A stretch of 64,000 nt of DNA from a virus: IMG/VR virus record IMGVR_UViG_3300032524_000070. One strand, 5' to 3'. Positions 29,101 to 49,814 of this stretch are shown piece by piece (the first letter of the stretch is position 1; each line of letters starts with the position of its first letter). The position numbers were made by a program, and so were the translations under genes. The notes under the pieces are model-generated. The model had not been told where the DNA came from. It ran no database searches and saw nothing but the letters and a program-made list of their open reading frames with translations.

Positions 29101-32100
29101 TGGTCACCCGCATCGACGGCAACGTGCCTCCGGTCCCCGTGGCAGCTCAGACATCGCTCCTGCTCCCGGAGGAGATCGTCGGGCAGGTCTTCTGGGGCAG
29201 CTTGAGCAGGCAGGCGGCGAGCCGGGCAACGTGGTCCTTCATGCGTTACGGCCTGGTGCCCGACCAGGTGTTCATCCAGGGCCACGCGGTCGTCAACAAC
29301 ACGGAGATGAGCGACCTCCCCGAGGACAACCCGGCGGCCGGTGGCGGCCAGTGGTGGCCGGTGCAGACCTTCGGGACGGCAGAGATCCTGCCGAACGTGG
29401 ACACCTTGCTCTTGAAGGCCACTTCGGCGAGCAGTGTCTACGATCTGAGCTACGGCTACGCCCGAGTGGAGCCATTCTTCACCCCGGACGCCATCTTCGA
29501 CTACCGGGCAGGCATCCAGCTCGACTCGACCACCATCGGGGCAGGTGGAGCTGAGCTGCTGCTGGACGACACGCAGCGACAGACCGTCGTGCGCAGCCTC
29601 ATGGTGCTGGAGAACCTGTCGGCTGACCCCACGGCCTACCGGGGCCTGGTGTCGCTGCCGCAGGTGAGCCACACCGGCCTCTTCCCGACCTCCGAGATGG
29701 GCTGGGCGGTCGAGGCAGGTGCGACCGTGGTGGGGACGCATGAAGGCGCTCAGATGGTGGTGGTGCAGAACGCCACCCAGCGGGGCAAGTGGCTCAACAA
29801 CCTGGTGTTCGACGCGACTGACCCCGGCATCGTCGATGCGGACGAGGGGCGGGTCTTCGAGGCACGGCTGGAGGTCAAGGCCCGGACGACCAACGCCAAC
29901 GGCGACTCCGGCATCATCTTCGGTGGCCAGGTCGCGGCTGCGGGGGCCGGGTTCGCGTACTTCCAGATCGAGCTGGCCGGAGCCATCGGCAGCGAGGTGG
30001 TTCGGCTTCGGACTGCTGCCGGTGCCCCCATCGGCGAGTACACCTTCGACTGGACGGGGGAGGCCCACACGTTCCGGCTCCTCGCCAACCGGGTAGCGGA
30101 TACGGTCACCCTGGTCATCGACGACATCGTGCAGACGCCCAGCGTCGCGTTCACGGCCTTCACCGGGGGCACGAACAACACGCAGGCATTCTTCGGCTGC
30201 ACGGGTCGGGACGCTGCTGATGCCTTCGACACAGCCTTGACGGCCACGGTCGAGTGGCAGCACTTCCACGCCCACGTCCAGGCTCCGGCGGGTGTCGTGC
30301 GAACCATCGGTGTGCTGCGGGGGGTGACGGCCAACGCCTTCTCGCAGGACATCAACGACTACGAGCTGCCTCGAACGGACGCCTCAACGGCTCCGAACTC
30401 GTGGGCGACCGGGCCGGTCATCGAGTGGTGGGACTGGCGGCAGCCCATCGACCTGCGGGTCTACCGCGATCCAGGCTGGGGCGTCACGGTCTTCCGGCCC
30501 GACCTGCCCTTGCCGCCCTACTACGTGCCCGAGGACGGCACGGCAGGGGTGGGCTTCATCACGGAGTCCAACGAGCCTTCGGCGGGCTGGATCAACGTCG
30601 AGTACAAGAACCTGCCTCCGACGCGGGGTGAGCAGCTCGGGTTCGTGGGCTTCGGCAGCCTGATCCCCGAGGACATCAGCCAGGCCCGGTGGGACTGGGT
30701 CCGCTACCGGATGTTCAAGCACCCGACCGAGGACCGCATCGCTCCTGAGCACATGCTCCTCAACCAGTTCAACGTCATCACGAGCGGGGAACGCACGCAG
30801 GACGTGACCCTGGAGACGGTCATCGTCCAGACGATGGACAAGACGCGGCTGTCCTTGCTGCCGACGCACCTGTACGCCGAGTCCATCTACAAGATCATCG
30901 ACGGGGCGACGATCTGGACGCGGGAGTTCTGGACCTTCGACCCGGCTTCGCAGCTCGTCACCCTCCAGCCCGACCCGCTGACGGGAGCCGCACGGGAGTT
31001 CTCTGCCGAGCACGCCAACGTCACGGTGATGTTCACGCCGGGCTTGCCGGTCACGAACACGTACCTGGGGCTCCAGCCCCTCCTGGACGGGGTGACGCTG
31101 CTCAACGAGGGCACGCCTCCGATTCCGATGAGCCAGACGGCTGAGAGCCAGATCGAGACGGTGTATGGGTCGCACTTGAACGACCCGGAGGACGTGCTCA
31201 ACGACGACCCAGACTTCGTGCTCAACGACCCGCACAGAACGATCCGCCACAACGACGTGGAGGGCTCGCTCTACGAGTCGCTGGACTTCATCGAGGTGGA
31301 CAACAGCGGCCAGACCGACCTCATCGCGGCCATCTGCGAGGGTGGTCCCGGCACAGGCTTCTCCGGGCACTCGCCCACCGAGGGGGAGGACACCTACTCC
31401 AAGACCGGCGGCGGGGCAGCTCTCGGTGGCGTGGGTGGCGTGGCTGACCTGTTCGCCACGGGCACCAAGGTCGGCATGGCGGTCGGGGCCGAGGTCTTCG
31501 ACTTCAGCGGGACGATGTTCTGGCACGACACGGACTTCCTGCCCCAGCCGGACTGGCAGCAGAAGGGCGGGATGCCCGGCGGCATCCTGTTCGCCTCTGG
31601 CGGCAACTTCGTCAACCCGGTGGTGGACGCCCTGGGCAACATCATCCCTGGAGCGGTCGTAGCGGGCGGTGGCAACCTCGGGCCGGGCACGGCAGTCCTG
31701 TTCCCCACCTTCCCGGCCAGAGGGCCTGTGGGTGGCGACCAGGGGCGCATCTACCAGCGCACGGACTGGTACCTGAGCCTCCGCTCTGTGCTGGCCACCG
31801 ACCCCGGTGGTTCGGCAGGTTCGGCAGGTTCGGCAGGTTCGGCAGGTGGTGGTGCGGTCGAGACCCCGCTGGACGAGGACTGGACGGCATCCGGGTGGGA
31901 CACGGATGCTCCGAGTGGCCCTGCGAGTCAGGTCGTCAACCCGACCGGGGTGACCAACCCTCTGGGTGCGGCCATCGGGTACATGCTGGGGGCAGGCGAC
32001 TACTCCCGCTACGGCCCGTGGGGTGGCCTGGGTGCCTTGTCGGCTGCCCGGGACTCCGGGAGCTTCGTGTTCATGGTCACGCTGGAAGAGAACGACCGGA

Positions 32101-32591
32101 TCATGCTGTGGGACCGGACCACCCTGACCCGGCATGGCTTCCGTGCGAAGGCTGTCCCCACGAACCCGAACCACCACTTCCAGCGAGGCCCGAACGAGCA
32201 CATCGCTCTGGCGAATGCCATCAACGGCTCCACCATCGGCGACGACTACTTCGCGGTCGCTGGTCTGAGCCTCAGCGGTCAGCTCAGCGTCACGGTCTAC
32301 ACGCTCGCTCCGGCCTTGCCGAACAGCAACCCGGACACGGCGGTCATCGGCACCAACACGCCGAACATCATCCTGGCCGATGTGCTCTCCACCGAGAACC
32401 CGACCCCGGCGGGGTGGACCTACGGGGTTCCGTGGGGTGGCTCCGAACTCACGCAGTCTTCTCTGCTGGCTGGTGGGGTGCAGACCATCGACTACCTGAA
32501 CGCCTACGACCCCCGCTTGGGTATCGTGGCGAACGGCGGTCAGGTGCTCTCCTTGGGGGCGGAAGTCAAGTTGATTTTCCAGCCAGCTTGA
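26172..32591 (+). CDS. Large (2139 aa) virion structural protein with Ig-like and lectin-like beta domains
   Basis: PPYVSSA...TIEVFFSEEV...DPTSY...GLTDIAGNPI resembles a bacterial Ig-like domain. Repeated beta-sandwich segments and a GY-rich N-terminus. Confidence 0.7.
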   Translation: MAFTPPTNPEDSYELSPFGFGPFPLPGESVDVAPPHPVGGGYGGVGFLSAGDLPDNGSPYGLGSYGSRWFSRPKVNISGGYGGDPYGLGGYGSTEVTPPYVSSAISLDGFTIEVFFSEEVDTTNPALTDPTSYTLEPITGAAPATVLSVHIEKLGSVNLAAGDTIAGAISVVITHTGTTQGGMYKVHATGLTDIAGNPIIDADAPFLAKGEPPTFAVSLPAPDAGNELLVTFSHPMLQNAGGFPDLASYDFAVATSNPYPIDLVPTSIVVVDDKQVRLGVKGMTSLNYDLTVSEAFAFAFDTTLGLRNCTALTLGVGTVTESPGYLVFSRPNTSAGFAREWDDTSGTITPLTSTLRSDCTFDFSNAAFEPAISLFPVPEVGEILFQDGVPGNGLFIKVMLQMSITGVEQVRLRSGTFDMTVDATWSDAVHTISFVRNMQAGIVTFLLDEQPLTSTAIANVDAPAETQASVRFGLYPGGWNISGVRLVSLITTSSTTVFSSAWNFLHGQIGQFLGSDLLTRDRLLTQRGPLVKGWGDATPATEADVAVIINGTAVSIAEVNPYIGGIVLTVPVPLLPLGDPQASVAVDYKWFKSPVMELAGLNTLGLVLNKFDCARRGHHDPAAHGDQVQVLPGQPDFMANPGHPKGAVDIHRFPMSVVLGPMSRSEPLYIGHRYMGFERAYSALTNSPTTLRLNQAPGRVSVPGFEREVAGVSVAYEGLVKPVDAAPAWALDGADFGAVDHDADAGIDLGTYTIIDPIVGDAGPTETATVYHRGLDLTYPSSVNLVARFQTAATALFDTDHVAPSPAPTGLVAVPTADGVFTGVGFGIHDNRHLYFCGVLLINGVEHVGLLLNPKRIHEWESWAIGPKSILTASSQSRGAFPSSQVSTGFTVGSKFQRLTGTQVGVYTATSVVAQSDGTTTVDFTPVLPSPWDIYGNKFVEVVFETRASIKPFTYRLDLDTDQQVAELRISGETRGVVTRIDGNVPPVPVAAQTSLLLPEEIVGQVFWGSLSRQAASRATWSFMRYGLVPDQVFIQGHAVVNNTEMSDLPEDNPAAGGGQWWPVQTFGTAEILPNVDTLLLKATSASSVYDLSYGYARVEPFFTPDAIFDYRAGIQLDSTTIGAGGAELLLDDTQRQTVVRSLMVLENLSADPTAYRGLVSLPQVSHTGLFPTSEMGWAVEAGATVVGTHEGAQMVVVQNATQRGKWLNNLVFDATDPGIVDADEGRVFEARLEVKARTTNANGDSGIIFGGQVAAAGAGFAYFQIELAGAIGSEVVRLRTAAGAPIGEYTFDWTGEAHTFRLLANRVADTVTLVIDDIVQTPSVAFTAFTGGTNNTQAFFGCTGRDAADAFDTALTATVEWQHFHAHVQAPAGVVRTIGVLRGVTANAFSQDINDYELPRTDASTAPNSWATGPVIEWWDWRQPIDLRVYRDPGWGVTVFRPDLPLPPYYVPEDGTAGVGFITESNEPSAGWINVEYKNLPPTRGEQLGFVGFGSLIPEDISQARWDWVRYRMFKHPTEDRIAPEHMLLNQFNVITSGERTQDVTLETVIVQTMDKTRLSLLPTHLYAESIYKIIDGATIWTREFWTFDPASQLVTLQPDPLTGAAREFSAEHANVTVMFTPGLPVTNTYLGLQPLLDGVTLLNEGTPPIPMSQTAESQIETVYGSHLNDPEDVLNDDPDFVLNDPHRTIRHNDVEGSLYESLDFIEVDNSGQTDLIAAICEGGPGTGFSGHSPTEGEDTYSKTGGGAALGGVGGVADLFATGTKVGMAVGAEVFDFSGTMFWHDTDFLPQPDWQQKGGMPGGILFASGGNFVNPVVDALGNIIPGAVVAGGGNLGPGTAVLFPTFPARGPVGGDQGRIYQRTDWYLSLRSVLATDPGGSAGSAGSAGSAGGGAVETPLDEDWTASGWDTDAPSGPASQVVNPTGVTNPLGAAIGYMLGAGDYSRYGPWGGLGALSAARDSGSFVFMVTLEENDRIMLWDRTTLTRHGFRAKAVPTNPNHHFQRGPNEHIALANAINGSTIGDDYFAVAGLSLSGQLSVTVYTLAPALPNSNPDTAVIGTNTPNIILADVLSTENPTPAGWTYGVPWGGSELTQSSLLAGGVQTIDYLNAYDPRLGIVANGGQVLSLGAEVKLIFQPA
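31809..31844 (+). repeat. Perfect 9-bp tandem repeat (GGTTCGGCA)x4 encoding a GSA linker
   Basis: Seen directly; gives DPGGSAGSAGSAGSAGGG in the 2139-aa protein. Confidence 0.9.
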
Positions 32592-32593
32592 CC

Positions 32594-32625
32594 CGGTATC
32601 CAGCCTATGAGGCACGGAAGATGAG
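32594..32625 (+). promoter_or_regulatory. Putative late-promoter motif copy 3
   Basis: CGGT-ATCCA-GCCTATGaggcacggaaGATGAG. Confidence 0.6.
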
Positions 32626-32652
32626 CAACCGGCCTGACCCCGGGAGGAGCTG

Positions 32653-32853
32653 ATGCCCCAGTACAGCGAGCAGATGAAGCGACAGCGGCAACAGGTCAAG
32701 ATGGGCCTGGCGTTGCAGTACGCCGATGCTCCCCTTCGAGCAAAGAAGGGCACCTTCATCTTCGACATGAAGGACGCGGAGACGGGCGAGCAGCTCGCCT
32801 ACTTTGAGAAGGACACCGAGAACCAGTCCAAGGAGCACGTTCGGGATGCGTAA
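32653..32853 (+). pseudogene. Orphaned original 5' end of the 33526 tail/baseplate gene, interrupted by an endonuclease insertion
   Basis: Strong RBS (GGAGGAG). KGTFIFDMKDAETGEQLA matches KGEFFFKMTDARSGRVLA at the start of 33526 (10/18 identical). Similarity stops at about 32814 and the ORF runs into the endonuclease RBS/start. Confidence 0.7.
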
Positions 32854-33529
32854 GGGCACCACCCACACGGAAGCGACGAAGGCAAGGCTCCGTGAAGCTC
32901 GAAGCCATCAGGTGCCGTGGAACAAGGGCGTCAAGACGGGGCCTCGACCGGCAGCCGTGCGTCAGAGGATCTCCGAGTCATTGATGGGGCACCCGGATCA
33001 TGTCCCCGTTGAGAAGAAGGCCACATGGAGACGGGCAATCTCGGAGTCCAAGAAGGGCCACGTTCAGTCAGATGATACTCGGCGCAAGCGGAGTGCCTCC
33101 ATGTCCCGGGCATACGCGGAGGGTCGGAAAACCGTCAAGCCAGCTTCCGGCTACGGGAAGGGTCGTCACTACGAGTCGCCGTTCCAGGGGTCAGTGTGGT
33201 TGCGGTCCACATCAGAAGTGCAGCGAGCCGAGGAATTGGATGCTGAGGGCGTGGTCTGGTTCTACGAGGTCCGTCGCTTCCCTGTTCGCATGGGGGATCG
33301 GGTTACGACCTACAGGCCGGATTTCTGGATCATCCCTGGTCTTGTTCGGGAAGACGTGCCCATCGATTACAGAGGTTTCCTCTTGTCGCTTCCTGTTGAA
33401 CGGGTTCGTGTCGAGGACGTGAAGGGGTGGTGGAAGCCCTCGCACAAGACCTTCCCGAAGATTCAGGCATTTCAGCAGCAGTACCCCGACATCCGATTCG
33501 AGATCGTCATTCGAGAGGGTCAGCGATGA
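32846..33529 (+). mobile_element. Free-standing homing endonuclease: NUMOD3-like repeats + PD-(D/E)XK nuclease
   Basis: AAGGAG RBS, ATG at 32846. HTEATKARL, PWNKG and KGHVQSDDTRRKRS are NUMOD3-like. LRSTSE...WFYE...TYRPDFWI...EDVKGW is a PD-(D/E)XK core. Lower GC3 than the flanking genes. Confidence 0.8.
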
Positions 33530-34083
33530 TCACGACCAAAGCCAAGGGCGAGTTCTTCTTCAAGATGACGGACGCCCGATCCGGGCGTGTTCTCGCTGAG
33601 TGGAATCAGCCCCAGGTCATCACCCTGGACGCAGGGATCGCCGGGGCTGCCCACTTCAAGGGTGACCTGACCGGCGGGTTGAAGATGCTGGCCATCGGGA
33701 CGGGTGCGACGGGCAACCTGCTCTCGCCGGACGCCCCGCAGAACACGCAGCGCAAGCTCAACAACGAGATCCAGCGCAAGGCGTTTTCGTCCACGACGTA
33801 CCGCACGGCAGAGGGTGTGGCGGTCAGCTATCGCACGCACATCGTTGACTTCACCACGACCTACGGCGAGGCCGAGGCGGTGGGTGCTCTCAACGAGATG
33901 GGGCTGCTGGTCCCGGCATCGATCAACCCTGCGACGCTGAACCCCATCAACAACGGGCCGTCCAACTACGACGCGAGCATCGACGTGGCCGGGCTGGACT
34001 TGATGGTCAACTACCTGACCTTTTCGGTAGTATCGAAACCAAGTACAGCGGTTTTGGCTATCACATGGAGGCTTACGCACTGA
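33526..34083 (+). CDS. Baseplate/tail-fibre attachment protein (tail-collar/DUF3751-like)
   Basis: ATGA overlap at 33526. VITLDAG...LAIGTG...KLNNEIQRK...FTTTYGEAEAVGALNEMGL...NYLTFSVVSKP...ITWRLT is a conserved myovirus baseplate/fibre-proximal family pattern. Confidence 0.75.
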   Translation: MITTKAKGEFFFKMTDARSGRVLAEWNQPQVITLDAGIAGAAHFKGDLTGGLKMLAIGTGATGNLLSPDAPQNTQRKLNNEIQRKAFSSTTYRTAEGVAVSYRTHIVDFTTTYGEAEAVGALNEMGLLVPASINPATLNPINNGPSNYDASIDVAGLDLMVNYLTFSVVSKPSTAVLAITWRLTH

Positions 34084-35105
34084 TGCTGGCCCCCCACTCG
34101 CCACACCCCAACCCAGAGAGTAAGGTAGTTGACCAGAACTACTTGAAGGGGGTTGGTATGCCTGGTGTGGTCAAGTGCCGGGTCTGCGGCATCGAGCGAC
34201 GACGGCTGGGGGCTCACATCAAGGCGTCCCACGGGATGACAGTGCCCGAGTACCAGTTGCAGTTTCCCGATGCAGCCGTGGAGGTCATCGGTAGTCGTGT
34301 GCGGTCTGCGGAATGTCGGGCCAAGCAGGCGACGGCTGCCAAGCGGCGGTGGGCTGACCCAGATGAGCGGGCTGCACAATCGGCTCGACTCAAAGATGCG
34401 GCCCCGTGGAAGGGCAAGAATCTCTCAGAGAGCCACAAGGCGGCGATCTCGGTGGGTGGATCTGGTGTCGCACATGACCTCACGGACGAGCGGCGAGCAG
34501 AACTAGCCGCCCGAGGTCGGCGGCTTCTGGTCAACAGCCGACAGCACCCGGACTATCGGCAGAAGCTCTCCGAGGGGCAAAGGCGGCGGCATGAGCGGGA
34601 GATCTGCGGTCTTGCGGACCCTGCCAATCAGCGCAAGAGCTACAACACCAGACTCAAGAACGGCACGCTCATCCCTCCCGGTGGGGGTCGCGGTATCACG
34701 GGCTTCCGCAAGGGTCTGTCGCACTACTGCCGAAGCACACTGGAGGCGAACTTCGCCCGCATCCTCGTTCACGAGAGGGTGCCCTACGAGTATGAGCCGA
34801 GGGTATTCATGCTGCCTGGTGGGGGCCGGTGGACACCGGATTTCCGGCTGCTCGCACCTCTCGGGGGTATCCCTGCTGGCTGGGTGGAAATGAAGGGCTG
34901 GCGACAGAAGGATGGCACCTTGCCGGGTGAAGCCTCTGCCAAGATCGCCGCCTTTGAGCAGATGACGGGGGAGGCTGTGTACGTCCTGGTGCAGAGCAGC
35001 CCTGAGTGGAAGGCCCTCACTGCGAAGTACGCTGGGCTGGTTCCGTGGGAGAGGCCCCGTTTCAACCTCAAGACTCATCCGGCCCTGTTCGGGAGGAAAG
35101 CCTGA
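34083..35105 (+). mobile_element. Free-standing homing endonuclease: C2H2 (MucR/Ros-like) Zn finger + NUMOD3 + PD-(D/E)XK
   Basis: VKCRVCG...LGAHIKASHGMTVPEY (Zn finger); PWKGKNLSESHKAAIS (NUMOD3-like); RSTLEANFARIL...YEYEP...WTPDF...WVEMKGW (nuclease). Start is either 34083 (TGATG) or 34158. Confidence 0.8.
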
Positions 35106-38100
35106 TGGCGGTCAAGGACCACACCAACCACTTCGACGCGCTTGAGTCGGCCCCTACCCCGGCCGACTTGCGAGTGCCGAACACCGTGTCCCGCTCGCCG
35201 GGGACTGGTGAGCGTGCCTTCATTGGTGTCGTCGCTGAGTCCGGCAAGCCGGTCCTCGACGCAGAGCTGAACCTGCACCAGAACGCTCAGTGGATGGAGG
35301 ACTACCTCCTTCGTCGCTGGCAGACCCCTTCGGGCTGGCTCCGGGGGCGCACACACCTCGATGCCTACTGCGACTGGAGCCTGGAGACGGCTCCTGCTGG
35401 CGTCACCGACGATTCTGGCCTCGTAGACCCCGGTGGCTCCGCAGGTTCGGCGGGCTCTGGTGGCTCTGGTGGCTCTGGTGGATCAGCGGGTGGTGGTGGC
35501 CCCCTCATCGCCGACGACGGGACGCTCCTGGACTCCGTGATTCTTCCGAGGCTCGAAGCCACGGTGGCCGGGCATCCGGTGGTGGTCGAGTACACGAACA
35601 CGAAGACGCCGGGCTACAACCTCATCGGCCTGACACCCGCGAAGATCTACGACGGCACGAACGCGACGGTGAAGCGCACCGACATGATCTTCCTGGAGGT
35701 CTGGCGGTCACTGGTGGCCCCCTCGCCCTTCGCCACGGGTCAGATCCAGATCGTTGCCTTCGCTTCCCTGATCGCTGGTGACCTTGTTCGCATCAACGGC
35801 ATCGCCCTGACGGCTGTGGCGGGGGCTCCGGGCCTCAACCAGTTCCAGATCGGTGCGAGCAACGACATCACGGCCACGAACATCGCCACGGCGATCAACC
35901 TGGTCGCCAACTCGTTCGACCTCATCGTGACGGCCCGTCCGACGACCAACGTGGTCCTCCTGACGGCTGACCTGCCCGGAGCTGGCGATGTCATCAGCCA
36001 GACGGGCAACTTCATCACCCTGTCCGTAACGGTCGCCACCGTGGGGGCTATGGTCGTCTCCGGGGCCACGCTGGTCGGGGGTGCTGACCGCCCGAACAAG
36101 CCGAGCAGCGAGCAGGACAAGATCTACCGGCACGGCAACGTGCTGTCCCCCAGCCCCGTCTGGCTCGACGACGAGATGGTCGATCCCATCATCGCGGTCG
36201 AGAGCAGCCAGCGCATCCAGCTCCACTACCGCATCCGCACGACGAGCGACGCCGAGGCCCTCAACTACAAGAAGCACCCGGACGGCTTCTCGAACCTCAT
36301 CGCAGGTGGTGGCCCGAACGACGCGGCCATCTTCGCGCAGGGCAACCGTGCCGTCCCGGTGTGGGCTGGCAACGGCGTGGACACCGTGTCCTACCCCTTC
36401 GTCCCCGCCGACAAGACGAGCACATGGCTCCAGTCCTCTGCCGTGTCCTTCGGCTGGGAAGACGACGGCCTGTACGTCGCGGGTGACGGGTCGGCAACCT
36501 CCGCAGCGAACCTCGGGGCCATCGACGGTTTCGTGTTCGCCATCCCCATCGCGTTCGTTCACCGGCACAACAACGTCAGCGACATGCTGGCGGGCTTCAA
36601 GGGCTTCGACCCGGAGAGCAACGCCAACGGTGCCCCGATGTACGCCCACACCGGCTACGTCGGCCCGCTGGGCAACATCCCGGCTGGTGACTCCGACCGC
36701 CCGGACGGCGAGTTCGCCAACGTCATCACGCAGCAGAACATCCTGGACCTCCGCAGGCACGTCGTCTTCCCCGGAGTGGACCTCGCGGCAGAGCTGAAGT
36801 ACCAGGTCCAGAGCCTCATGGATGGCAACCTGCGAACCTGGTCGGTGGACACCGCCAGCAAGCAGACCCTCGGTGGTGACTCCGGGGATGCCTCGACCCG
36901 TTACCTCATCTGCAACGAGGTCGGTCGCACGGAGTCCGAAGGTGCGACGCCCCCTCTGGCGGGTGAGAACACCGAGCGGGGCGAGCTGATCCGCAGCTAC
37001 GACCACATCTGCCGGAGGTTTGCTGACCAGCCCATCGTGGAACGGGTCGTCGTCGCCTTCTGGCCGGGTGACCGCAACGGAGCCCCCGTGGCTCCGGGTA
37101 CGGACAACCCCGGCAAGTACATCAGCCCCAAGGCTGGTGGTGGCACGATGACGGCCCTCTGGTACGAGGGCGACACGCTCAACCTCGACCTGGAGTTCCT
37201 CAACTCCACGACCCTCGGCGGCATGTTCGACAGCCGCCCGGGTGCGGGCACGGGTGGCGGCGGCTCCGGCACGGGCATCCCGGACCAGAACTTCCTTCAG
37301 TTCGCTCCGGCGGGCACGGTCATCACCGATGTCCTCAACGCCTGGCACGACGACGGCCACTACGACCAGGTGACCAACCAGAACGTGCAGCTCGGCATCA
37401 TCAAGGGCCTGGGCACGACGCACCTCCAGGTCACCATCGACGCCAACGACACGGTGACCACAGAGGGGCAGCCCATCGCCGGACCGAACATCGAGCACAA
37501 GATGGTCGGCTCGGACGTGGCTGGTGCTCCCCCGGTGGCTCCTGCGAACTTCGGTTCGCCTCGACGCATCTTCCTGGAGGTCGAGATCACCTACCCCATC
37601 GGGGTGGGGACGACCGACACCCCGGACCACGAGGTCATCCCGGACCTGGGCGTCTACACGGACAGCGTGCTGACGGTCACTGGCCCCGGCCCGCTCATCG
37701 AGAACGACGTGCTCCAGCGGCCCGCCGACTTCGAGAACCTGCTGGCAGCCCGCTACCGCAGTGGCTTCCGCGAGGTGCAGTCGGAGTACGTGGCGAACGA
37801 CACCATCAACCACGCGGCTCCTCTGGCTGGAACGGCCATCGGGGTGGCGACGGTCGAGCAGATCGTCTCGCTGGACCGCAGCACCTTGCGGTTCCCCCGC
37901 CGGGTGTGGAGCAACGACAATGGAACCGGGCTGTACGTCAACGACGTACCCGGAGCGGCAGTCCAGACGGTCGATGTCCCCAACTCGGAGCTGGGTTCTT
38001 CCAGCCGCCTCATCCAGCTCGCCGGGGGCGGGGGCATTCCCCTCTCGGGAGTGGGTCACACGCTCTGCGACATCCGGTACTTCGCACAGGACCCGATCCC

Positions 38101-49043: not shown

Positions 49044-49814
49044 ATGGCACTCGACCACGGACAACTACGCCGCATCTCCGCCGCCGCTGACAAGCGGCGG
49101 TCGGTGGAGCGTCGTGCCGCCGTGGGTCGGATGAAGGAGAAGCCCTGTGCAGACTGCGAGACGGCCTATCCTTTCTTCGTCATGGACTTCGACCACCGGG
49201 ACCCGAGCACCAAGGATTTCACCATCAGCAGGGTGGTGACCCGGCTGGCATGGGACAAGCTCGTGGCCGAGATCGAGAAGTGCGATGTCGTATGCGTCAA
49301 CTGCCACCGTTTGCGAACGTGGGCACCGCCCACGAACCGGTCGGCCCGGCAGCGACTTCTGATTGACCTCAAGGCGACCCCCTGTGCGGATTGCAAGGGG
49401 GAGTTCCACTACTGCCAGATGGACTTCGACCACGTTCGGGGTGAAAAGCTCGGTCAGGTGCCCAAGAGGGGCACCGCACAGGCCATCAAGGCTGAGGCCG
49501 CCAAGTGCGATGTGGTCTGCGCGAATTGCCATCGAGTGCGTTCACAGGCCGCCGCCAAGGGGTCTGCCCGGTTGGTTCCTGCGGACATCGACATGGTGTG
49601 GAAGCAGCGCAGTAGCAAGACTCCGCAGACGAAGCTGCGGAAGACCACACGGCCTTGGCACAGCCTCGCCGGAATGATGCCGGATGGTGCTCTTGCAGCC
49701 CGCCACGGGATCACCCGGAACGCCATCAGGAACTACCGGAAAAAGATGAAGATCGAACCGTTCACACGCCAGGGCGTGCGACCCGATCTCAAGGAGGTGC
49801 GCTGTGGCGCTTGA
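49044..49814 (+). mobile_element. Tandem double-HNH endonuclease with C-terminal HTH, fused to the captured start of the downstream gene
   Basis: Two copies of PCADC...MDFDH...KCDVVC.NCHR.R, then a C-terminal DGALAARHGITRNAIRNYRKK (HTH). Begins MALDHG like 49804. Confidence 0.85.

What the first reader, a model, noticed from the sequence alone, without database searches (positions are those of the whole stretch)
32653..33620. NUMOD3/PD-(D/E)XK endonuclease splits a baseplate/fibre gene, leaving a 5' stub and supplying a new N-terminus
The stub 32653-32814 (...KGTFIFDMKDAETGEQLAYFEKD) has the late motif and a strong RBS. After the nuclease, 33526 restarts with a diverged equivalent (KGEFFFKMTDARSGRVLAEWNQP, 10/18 identical) that uses atypical codons (AAA, CGA, CGT, GTT, AAT) before joining the typical-codon VITLDAG... 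body. The new version lacks about 25 N-terminal residues of the stub. The nuclease is translationally coupled on both sides. An alternative reading is an intervening sequence removed at RNA level joining ~32814 to ~33613.
Basis: partly seen in the sequence, partly recalled or inferred. Interest (0 to 1): 0.8.

Follow-up and report, generated by a model that had tools for sequence, protein, structure and literature searches.

The report
Homing nuclease cassette splitting phage gene
A selfish DNA-cutting-enzyme gene sits inside a small tail-module gene of an uncultured phage and, instead of being spliced out, brings its own ribosome site, start codon and a spare copy of the ~27 residues around the insertion point, so the gene lives on as two overlapping pieces; the same layout recurs in at least eight other phage lineages.

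Summary
The usual form of this gene is one ~210-codon ORF, seen in more than 100 homologues; the closest is locus L003 / protein P0005. In the window an 801-bp cassette (32816-33616) replaces 3 bp at codon 55. The first 54 codons remain as a translated stub (32653-32853). The cassette holds a NUMOD3 + PD-(D/E)XK-fold nuclease gene (32846-33529), a Shine-Dalgarno site, an ATG and 29 codons that re-encode residues 28-55. The body (33526-34083) follows.

No intron or intein signature was found in seven cassettes. The replacement N-terminus is under purifying selection, so it is coding. The stub-nuclease-body layout, with overlapping stop/start codons, occurs in at least eight other diverged phage lineages. 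Cassette presence is scattered over the gene tree, which fits homing. In one co-diverged pair the stub is also under purifying selection, so it is probably more than debris.

A second, related nuclease gene (34065-35105) follows the body, whose last ~20 codons are recoded.

The closest known parallels are yeast WHO elements and fungal mitochondrial mobile endonuclease ORFs (mirror image, 3' ends), and phage genes split by homing nucleases (Aeh1 nrdA). I found no phage description of this layout. Unchecked notes from this scan describe similar cassettes on other phage DNA. I rate it a new variant of a known kind.

The parts
32596..32611 (+). 16-nt upstream element conserved in the relatives L003, L004 and L006. 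It is a candidate promoter element of the target gene; its function is unknown.
   Evidence: invariant in 4 aligned loci, single copy in the window.
32642..32649 (+). Shine-Dalgarno site (GGGAGGAG) of the target gene. It now serves the stub.
   Evidence: conserved in L003/L004/L006.
32653..32814 (+). Resident 5' end of the target gene (codons 1-54: N-terminal extension plus beta-hairpin). It is now the homologous part of the stub ORF.
   Evidence: One amino-acid difference from P0005/L003; 3 synonymous and 1 non-synonymous change. hhalign E 2e-21 to profile positions 1-56.
32815..32853 (+). Stub tail: 12 cassette-encoded codons plus the TAA stop, which overlaps the nuclease start.
   Evidence: Homology to L003 ends at 32815. 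The same tail is present in P0122. Equivalent 6-12-codon tails occur in 7 other lineages.
32816..33616 (+). Inserted cassette (801 bp, replacing 3 bp of the empty allele): leader, nuclease gene, ribosome site, ATG and replacement N-terminus.
   Evidence: blastn and alignment against L003. GC3 is 0.70-0.79, against 0.85-0.90 for resident genes.
32846..33529 (+). HEG1: a 227-aa free-standing homing-endonuclease-like gene. It has N-terminal NUMOD3 helices and a C-terminal PD-(D/E)XK-fold nuclease domain (residues about 104-226; conserved E124, D159, E190/D191, K193).
   Evidence: Pfam NUMOD3 30.2 bits against a cut-off of 20.4. AF2 pLDDT 92.9. TnsA match Z 8.5, rmsd 3.0 over 106 aa; Foldseek places TnsA first. 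Conserved columns.
33513..33519 (+). Shine-Dalgarno-like GAGAGGG inside the 3' end of HEG1, 6 nt before the body's ATG.
   Evidence: An equivalent purine-rich site precedes the body's start in six other cassettes.
33526..33616 (+). Cassette-borne replacement N-terminus: ATG, a 5-residue leader and a diverged copy of the beta-hairpin (residues 28-55 of the full-length protein, with Q in place of the nearly invariant N55).
   Evidence: The same type of N-terminus is seen in short forms P0003-P0010. Purifying selection in two independent pairs, omega about 0.08-0.11.
33617..34022 (+). Resident body of the target gene, 97% identical in DNA to the uninterrupted allele of L003.
   Evidence: dS 0.115, dN 0.013.
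34023..34083 (+). Recoded last ~20 codons of the body. The amino acids are mostly kept and nearly every codon is changed. This tract belongs to the second nuclease cassette.
   Evidence: GC3 0.43. Synonymous sites are saturated against L003. Alignment.
34065..35105 (+). HEG2: a related 346-aa nuclease gene (zinc-finger-like N-terminus, NUMOD3-like repeat, same PD-(D/E)XK domain), absent from L003. An in-frame ATG at 34083 overlaps the body's stop, and its own stop overlaps the next gene's ATG at 35105.
   Evidence: 30% identity to HEG1, shared catalytic columns.

Best explanation
A free-standing homing endonuclease cassette lives inside a coding sequence without an intron or intein.

Shown:
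- The normal gene is one ~210-codon ORF in the tail/baseplate module.
- In this phage an 801-bp cassette sits at codon 55, at the end of a predicted N-terminal beta-hairpin.
- The cassette carries the nuclease gene, a ribosome-binding site, an ATG and its own diverged copy of the hairpin. Everything downstream is therefore still made as a complete fold that lacks only the first ~27 residues.
- The resident first 54 codons stay in place as a separate ORF. Its stop overlaps the nuclease start codon.
- The same chain of overlapping stops and starts (stub, nuclease, body) is kept in all lineages examined.

Inferred:
- The nuclease cuts uninterrupted alleles at or near codons 52-58, the most conserved part of that half of the gene, during mixed infection.
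- The break is repaired from the cassette-bearing genome, with the stub as the left homology arm and the body as the right arm. This copies the cassette in precisely.
- Neither junction of an occupied allele recreates the empty-site sequence, so occupied alleles are immune.
- The nuclease has no signals of its own. It is translated at a low level by re-initiation after the stub.
- The stub is probably still a working piece of the protein, supplying the N-terminal extension in trans (about 55-60% within this explanation). It would then be more than a launch pad and homology arm.
For: Empty site and norm:
- More than 100 homologues of 209-219 aa are uninterrupted.
- L003 / P0005 carries the window's stub sequence joined directly to the body.
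- Cassette ends are mapped to the base.

Recurrence:
- The stub-nuclease-body layout at the equivalent codon is found in L017, L019, L021, L023, L025, L027, L028, L029 and L037.
- All of them have overlapping stop/start codons and a ribosome site before the body.

Mobility:
- On the tree of the body, the 20 cassette or short forms need at least 14 state changes, at least 6 of them forced by well-supported branches.
- Some short forms have bodies identical or nearly identical to uninterrupted forms.
- L027 and L028 are 100% identical from the nuclease start onward but only 50-88% identical upstream of it.
- The cassette's GC3 is lower than that of resident genes.

Coding status of the replacement N-terminus:
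- dN/dS is about 0.11 (L025 vs L028) and 0.075 (L037 vs L019), binomial p 6e-5 and 2e-5.

Stub:
- In L037 vs L019, dS is similar across stub (0.52), nuclease (0.45) and body (0.64). The stub's dN/dS is 0.15, p 2e-4.

Nuclease:
- NUMOD3; confident model with a TnsA-like restriction-endonuclease fold; conserved acidic and lysine residues; dN/dS 0.12-0.2.

No intron:
- No Rfam match at E<=10 in the window region, nor at E<=1 in six other cassettes.
Against: - There are no expression, cleavage or virion data.
- The window's nuclease is the shortest of its family. Relatives carry 40-130 more N-terminal residues, so it may be weakened.
- The purifying-selection signal in stubs could partly be inherited from functional uninterrupted alleles, because each homing event makes a fresh stub. 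L027/L028 show exactly that.
- The structure model of the target protein is poor (pLDDT 49), so 'complete fold' rests on alignment and on a moderately confident hairpin only.
- Direct similarity between the two hairpin copies is not significant by itself.
Confidence: 0.6

Rival explanations
1. The layout and mobility are the same, but the stub is functionless debris. It persists only as the left homology arm and as the translated leader that lets ribosomes reach the nuclease start. The truncated body alone does the job.
For: In yeast WHO elements the displaced gene fragment is only a homology arm and may decay (PMC7282813). Family members such as phage G gp190 and the phrog_5417 profile lack the N-terminal extension, so it may be dispensable. 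L027/L028 show that stubs can be freshly sampled from resident alleles.
Against: All stubs seen are intact ORFs that keep the extension and its conserved short motif. The stub shows purifying selection (dN/dS 0.15) in a pair whose stub, nuclease and body have similar dS. A leader used only for translational coupling would not need 54 conserved codons.
Confidence: 0.3
2. The inserted stretch is a self-splicing intron, or another RNA-level intervening sequence, that carries the nuclease ORF. Splicing would rejoin stub and body into the full-length protein.
For: A join of about 32814 to about 33613 would restore a near-normal protein in frame. Intron-borne nucleases do interrupt phage structural genes, for example the ICP1 tape-measure gene (PMC10448857).
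Against: No group I or II match was found in seven cassettes. Only 31 nt and 87 nt of the insert lie outside the nuclease ORF. The 87 nt encode a hairpin homologue under strong purifying selection, preceded by a conserved ribosome site and ATG. The reading-frame relation of stub and body is not conserved between loci (coordinates).
Confidence: 0.04
3. The gene was already split for other reasons, and the nuclease later settled in the gap. This has been suggested for gene 43 of Aeromonas phage 25 (PMC2988022).
For: Short forms of the protein exist whose gene context I could not see.
Against: Every empty allele seen in DNA is uninterrupted. In every locus where the DNA upstream of a short form is present, the nuclease gene is there, and where that DNA reaches far enough the stub is too; no split form without a nuclease gene was seen. 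In the window the cassette replaces just 3 bp of an otherwise 97% identical uninterrupted allele.
Confidence: 0.04
4. A 'fractured gene': the two halves carry split-intein pieces and are ligated by protein trans-splicing, with the nuclease gene between them (PMC2677866).
For: The gene order (5' half, free-standing nuclease, 3' half) is the same.
Against: The stub tail is 6-12 residues and the leader before the new hairpin is 2-16 residues, too short for intein halves. There is no Pfam hit on the stub or the body N-terminus. The two pieces overlap by 27 residues rather than abutting.
Confidence: 0.01

Closest known systems
WHO homing elements at FBA1 of Torulaspora/Lachancea yeasts (Coughlan et al. 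2020, PMC7282813; read)
   Same: The mobile unit is an endonuclease gene plus a resistant copy of one end of the target gene. The displaced resident end stays next to it as a duplicated fragment and serves as the second homology arm. Homing repeatedly replaces the gene end and produces a chimeric gene phylogeny.
   Different: WHO replaces the 3' end; the case here is at the 5' end, so the element must also bring a ribosome site and start codon. The WHO nuclease is LAGLIDADG/intein-derived with its own promoter, in a eukaryotic nucleus. The WHO fragment is untranslated and decays. Here the stub is translated, feeds the nuclease by stop/start overlap and looks selected. Here the replacement is incomplete: 27 residues are not replaced.
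Mobile endonuclease ORFs (mORFs) making gene hybrids in fungal mitochondria: Allomyces macrogynus atp6; Glomus atp6, atp9, cox2 and nad3 (PMC3630166; read)
   Same: An endonuclease ORF is inserted in a protein gene together with a foreign copy of the gene terminus. The native terminus is displaced and duplicated. The native copy groups with close relatives, while the inserted copy comes from elsewhere.
   Different: These affect C-termini and use LAGLIDADG or GIY-YIG nucleases, often in frame with the gene, in organelle genomes. The displaced native end was mostly not expressed.
Phage genes split by free-standing homing endonuclease genes: Aeh1 nrdA/mobE, T4 39/60 mobA, phage 25 gene 43 (Edgell et al. 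2010, PMC2988022; read)
   Same: A free-standing nuclease gene lies inside a phage coding region. Two separately translated polypeptides result. The nuclease depends on upstream host signals through overlapping stop/start codons.
   Different: No duplicated, overlapping segment is described for those cases; the two pieces abut. The nuclease families differ (HNH, GIY-YIG), and the targets are enzymes, not virion-module proteins.
Intron- or intein-borne homing endonucleases
   Same: Precise insertion at a conserved site of an important gene. Presence/absence polymorphism. The insertion itself destroys the target site.
   Different: No ribozyme or intein is present. Gene function is kept by duplicating a gene segment and restarting translation, not by splicing.

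Membership tests
Free-standing homing endonuclease gene (HEG) | Encodes a site-specific DNA endonuclease domain with an intact catalytic core | tested here: met
   Confident AF2 model (pLDDT 92.9). Restriction-endonuclease-like fold: TnsA Z 8.5, also VRR-NUC, Bax1, I-Bth0305I, Vsr and I-Ssp6803I. E124, D159, E190/D191 and K193 are conserved. Sequence specificity was not tested.
Free-standing homing endonuclease gene (HEG) | Presence/absence polymorphism at one fixed site among otherwise very similar genomes | tested here: met
   Window vs L003/P0005. P0010 vs P0033, P0008 vs P0026 and P0003 vs P0020 on the tree.
Free-standing homing endonuclease gene (HEG) | Spread independent of the host gene's phylogeny, with sharp recombination boundaries | tested here: met
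   At least 14 state changes on the body tree. The L027/L028 identity step lies at the stub/nuclease junction.
Free-standing homing endonuclease gene (HEG) | Cleaves the empty allele and is copied in by break repair | not testable with these tools
   Needs an enzyme assay or a mixed-infection/plasmid homing assay.
NUMOD3 DNA-binding motif | Match to PF07460 above the gathering score | tested here: met
   30.2 bits against a cut-off of 20.4, residues 4-31.
PD-(D/E)XK nuclease superfamily | Restriction-endonuclease-like alpha/beta core with an acidic residue, a PD motif and a (D/E)xK motif | tested here: met
   Fold matches. P158-D159 and D191-x-K193 are nearly invariant or invariant in 16- and 62-sequence alignments. 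Pfam itself gives only a sub-threshold Phage_endo_I hit.
Group I / group II intron carrying a HEG | Ribozyme core detectable by covariance models, with non-coding flanks around the ORF | tested here: not met
   No Rfam hit in the window at E<=10, nor in six other cassettes at E<=1. The 3' flank is protein-coding under purifying selection. An unknown ribozyme class cannot be excluded by this test.
Split-intein 'fractured gene' (PMC2677866) | N- and C-intein halves at the ends of the two gene pieces | tested here: not met
   Tails of 6-12 and leaders of 2-16 residues. No Pfam domain. The pieces overlap by 27 residues.
Gene-end-replacing homing elements (WHO elements, fungal mORFs) | The element is a nuclease gene plus a carried copy of the target gene's end, and the resident end is left as a duplicated fragment | tested here: met
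   The same holds in eight other lineages.
Gene-end-replacing homing elements (WHO elements, fungal mORFs) | The carried copy fully replaces the displaced end, so that one polypeptide is complete | tested here: not met
   The new N-terminus lacks residues 1-27 of the full-length protein.
HEG-split 'genes in pieces' (Aeh1 NrdA type) | Both pieces are kept as translated ORFs under selection and assemble into the functional protein | tested here: inconclusive
   Both ORFs are intact in all lineages, and both are under purifying selection. Assembly was not testable.

The most novel reading that the evidence does not exclude
This would be one example of a general, undescribed third way, beside introns and inteins, for homing endonucleases to live inside phage coding sequences. 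The cassette carries a 'prosthetic' gene start. In this family it goes further and converts the host gene into two co-selected, overlapping polypeptides. The duplicated beta-hairpin would let the orphaned N-terminal piece still dock, and it also provides the direct repeats through which the nuclease can later be lost cleanly.

Several observations point this way. Nucleases of the same family do it at a second target gene (L036/L032). An unrelated HNH does it 16 kb downstream in the same genome. Unchecked scan notes list further phage cases.
Probability: 0.45. Interest if true: 0.78.

Novelty: new variant of a known kind. Interest (0 to 1): 0.62.

Why it matters
Homing endonucleases are thought to need an intron, an intein or an intergenic site to avoid killing their host gene. 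This case shows a well-populated natural alternative in phages. The element restarts translation and carries the piece of protein that its own insertion would otherwise cut off.

- It explains small 'orphan' ORFs and N-terminally odd virion genes in metagenomic phage annotations, which gene callers report as unrelated hypothetical proteins.
- It marks hot spots of recombination in tail modules.
- It defines an uncharacterised NUMOD3 + TnsA-like nuclease family of about 500 clusters, with a predictable target site that could be tested directly.
- If the stub is functional, it is also a natural experiment in protein fragment complementation.

Tried and rejected
- **Intron.** Rfam evalue-mode scans of the window region and of six other cassettes found nothing relevant.
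- **Intein or split intein.** Rejected on lengths and the lack of domains.
- **Direct similarity.** BLASTP of stub against body gave no alignment. The duplication had to be shown through the family profile.
- **Stub in phage records.** tblastn of the stub against GenBank phages gave no match.
- **Structure of the target protein.** The AF2 model was too poor (pLDDT 49) for a fold search. The protein atlas gave only weak tail-fibre/baseplate leads. PHROGs and Pfam give no function for it or for the two giant neighbours.
- **PDB sequence search with the nuclease.** Only chance hits.
- **Whole genome.** None is held for this window.
- **Other scans.** The genome-contig scan with the nuclease found no relative. 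The 62-sequence alignment was too diverse for a locus scan.
I could not find a repeated motif. The conserved 16-mer upstream is single-copy.
- **Literature.** Five full-text searches found no phage description of this layout. The library is incomplete.
Full report
**What is in the sequence**

On the + strand there are four tightly chained ORFs.
- A 66-codon ORF at 32653-32853, with a strong Shine-Dalgarno site.
- A 227-codon ORF from the ATG at 32846 to 33529. Its start lies 5 nt before the first ORF's TAA.
- A 185-codon ORF at 33526-34083. Its ATG overlaps the previous TGA as ATGA.
- A 346-codon ORF at 34065-35105. An in-frame ATG at 34083 overlaps the previous stop, and its own stop overlaps the ATG of the next large gene at 35105.

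The second ORF has a NUMOD3 motif above Pfam's cut-off. The second and fourth ORFs are 30% identical and share a C-terminal domain.

**The uninterrupted gene**

A search of 5.8 billion proteins with the 185-aa product gave 625 relatives. Most are 209-219 aa and carry an N-terminal extension of about 30 residues before the part that matches the window. The closest full-length form is P0005 (210 aa). It begins with the window's 66-codon ORF almost letter for letter for 54 residues (one change) and then runs straight into the body.

Its DNA was fetched as L003, from a 141.7-kb IMG/VR contig. blastn gives three aligned blocks:
- window 31001-32815 = L003 4244-6070 (89.8%);
- window 33617-34022 = L003 6074-6479 (97.0%);
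- window 35104-36499 = L003 6550-7942 (88.3%).

So 801 bp (32816-33616) replace 3 bp at codon 55. A second block (34023-35103) replaces the last 70 bp of the gene region.

Profile alignment shows stub residues 1-55 on residues 1-55 of the full-length protein and body residues 3-185 on residues 28-210. Residues 28-55 are encoded twice, and the body lacks the first 27. A low-confidence model of the full-length protein predicts residues 32-57 as a beta-hairpin, the only moderately confident part. The insertion lies at the end of its second strand. The direct similarity of the two copies (10 of 23 identical) is not significant alone.

**It is not an intron or intein**

Rfam in permissive mode finds no intron in the window region or in six other cassettes. 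Only 31 nt and 87 nt of the insert lie outside the nuclease ORF. The 87 nt encode a recognisable copy of the hairpin, preceded by a purine-rich ribosome site and an ATG in every lineage.

This segment evolves under strong purifying selection:
- dN/dS about 0.11 between L025 and L028;
- dN/dS about 0.075 between L037 and L019;
- binomial p about 6e-5 and 2e-5.

Stub tails (6-12 residues) and leaders (2-16 residues) leave no room for split-intein halves.

**It is a recurrent, mobile unit**

Scans with the nuclease protein recovered the same order at the equivalent codon in several diverged lineages. The order is stub of about 60 codons, nuclease, then body with its own hairpin. It was found in L017, L019/L038, L021, L023/L041, L025, L027, L028, L029/L040 and L037. 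G+C ranges from 38% to 65% and nuclease identity to the window's from 50 to 58%. In each, the stub's stop lies 1-10 nt after the nuclease start, and the nuclease's 3' end holds the ribosome site for the body.

On a tree of the body alone, the 20 cassette or short forms need at least 14 changes of state (at least 6 on well-supported branches). Several have bodies identical or nearly identical to uninterrupted forms: window/P0005, P0010/P0033, P0008/P0026 and P0003/P0020.

L027 and L028 are 100% identical from the nuclease start onward, yet only 50-88% identical in the stub and upstream (nuclease dS 0.03, stub dS 0.45). This is a recombination boundary exactly at the left end of the cassette.

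In the window the cassette has lower GC3 (0.70-0.79) than resident genes (0.85-0.90). Cassette alleles usually carry Q where uninterrupted alleles have a nearly invariant N (N55).

**The nuclease**

The family has about 500 representative clusters at E<=1e-3. A 62-sequence alignment gave a confident model (pLDDT 92.9). Its C-terminal domain (residues about 104-226) matches the catalytic domain of TnsA best (Z 8.5, rmsd 3.0 over 106 residues; also first by Foldseek). Other restriction-endonuclease-fold nucleases follow, including the homing enzymes I-Bth0305I and I-Ssp6803I.

E124, P158-D159, E190/D191 and K193 are conserved. The gene is under purifying selection. The window's copy is the shortest of the family: relatives have 40-130 more N-terminal residues with further NUMOD3-like repeats.

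**Is the stub debris?**

Every stub seen is an intact ORF that keeps the N-terminal extension. In the window it differs from L003 by 3 synonymous changes and 1 non-synonymous change, too few to judge.

The best test is L037 against L019. Synonymous divergence is similar across stub (0.52), nuclease (0.45) and body (0.64), as expected if the whole unit diverged together. The stub's dN/dS is 0.15, p 2e-4.

This favours a stub that is still used. The caveat is that homing makes fresh stubs from functional alleles, as L027/L028 illustrate. Some distant family members (phage G gp190, the phrog_5417 profile) lack the extension altogether, so the body alone may suffice.

**Mechanism proposed**

The steps below are inferred, except where marked as shown above.
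- The nuclease cuts uninterrupted alleles near codons 52-58.
- Repair copies the cassette from a co-infecting genome, using the stub and the body as homology arms.
- Occupied alleles are immune because neither junction recreates the site.
- The nuclease is expressed by termination-reinitiation behind the stub.
- The body restarts from the cassette's own signals.

The likely origin is a nuclease that sat upstream of a short-type homologue and was joined illegitimately into an extension-bearing allele. After that event the stub supplied the missing left arm. The short leaders of the replacement N-termini resemble the short N-termini of extension-less homologues, which fits this origin.

**Comparison with known systems**

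- **Yeast WHO elements.** The logic matches: nuclease plus resistant gene end, with the displaced end kept as a homology arm (PMC7282813).
- **Fungal mitochondrial mobile endonuclease ORFs.** The logic also matches (PMC3630166).
- Both of these act at 3' ends, in eukaryotes, with other nuclease families.
- **Phage genes split by free-standing nucleases.** Aeh1 nrdA, T4 39/60 and phage 25 gene 43 share the host and the translational coupling, but no overlap of the two pieces is described for them (PMC2988022).
- I found no phage report of this layout.
- Notes from this scan, which I did not check, describe similar start-replacing cassettes on other phage DNA and one elsewhere in this genome. 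I confirmed only the latter's six-codon duplication.

**Verdict**

This is a new variant of a known kind. Its particular feature is that the replacement is partial, so the gene becomes two overlapping and apparently co-selected pieces. My confidences: 0.6 that it is a mobile cassette whose stub is still used, 0.3 that it is the same cassette with a functionless stub, and about 0.1 for all other readings together.

**Context and limits**

- The gene lies downstream of a sheath-initiator-like gene and a Baseplate_J gene, among giant unassigned proteins. 'Baseplate/fibre' is therefore a neighbourhood inference only.

Noticed in passing
window 34023-35105: A second, related nuclease gene (HEG2, 346 aa) sits right after the target gene and is absent from L003. 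The last ~20 codons of the target gene next to it are recoded at nearly every synonymous site (GC3 0.43; pS about 1) while the amino acids are mostly kept. This looks like an immune target tract carried by that cassette. No 3' stub is left. HEG2-like genes occupy the same position in L007, L014, L023/L041 and L025.
   Followed up: partly
window 49044-49814 and 49804 onward: An HNH nuclease ORF and the 2082-aa gene that follows it both begin with the same six residues. The nuclease appears to have taken over the gene's start and to carry a replacement. This was noted by earlier scan entries; only the duplication itself was verified here.
   Followed up: partly
L036:3881-4660 (SXGQ01372846.1) and L032:3332-5424: The same nuclease family occurs at a different target gene. 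In L036 a 29-residue 5' duplicate (86% identical) brackets a decayed remnant of the nuclease, of which only the last ~36 residues are recognisable. In L032 an intact relative sits directly upstream of the homologous gene and shares its first three residues.
   Followed up: partly
proteins P0079 and P0069: These are full-length, extension-bearing forms that carry cassette-type features: Q at position 55 in P0079, and a cassette-like hairpin sequence in P0069. They may be clean nuclease-loss revertants formed by recombination between the two hairpin copies, or the source lineage of the carried hairpin.
   Followed up: no
window 32653-34022 vs flanks: Synonymous divergence from L003 is about three times lower in the target gene (dS 0.10-0.12) than in the giant genes on either side (0.31-0.36). 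This suggests recent exchange of just this gene between lineages.
   Followed up: no
window 32846-33529: The window's HEG1 (227 aa) lacks the 40-130 N-terminal residues, with extra NUMOD3-like repeats, that all close relatives have. It may be a trimmed and possibly weakened copy.
   Followed up: no
window 32596-32611: A 16-nt element about 41 nt upstream of the stub's ATG is invariant in L003, L004 and L006, although the surrounding spacer varies. It is single-copy in the window.
   Followed up: partly
L029:5545-6327 and L040:4545-5327: In this lineage an unrelated HNH-type nuclease gene, instead of a HEG2-type gene, follows the target gene. The 3' side of this small gene therefore attracts different nuclease families.
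   Followed up: no
L037 vs L019 flanks: The stub-nuclease-body unit is 80-90% identical between these two contigs, but the DNA immediately upstream and downstream is unrelated (about 30-40% identity). The whole unit seems to sit in different neighbourhoods.
   Followed up: no
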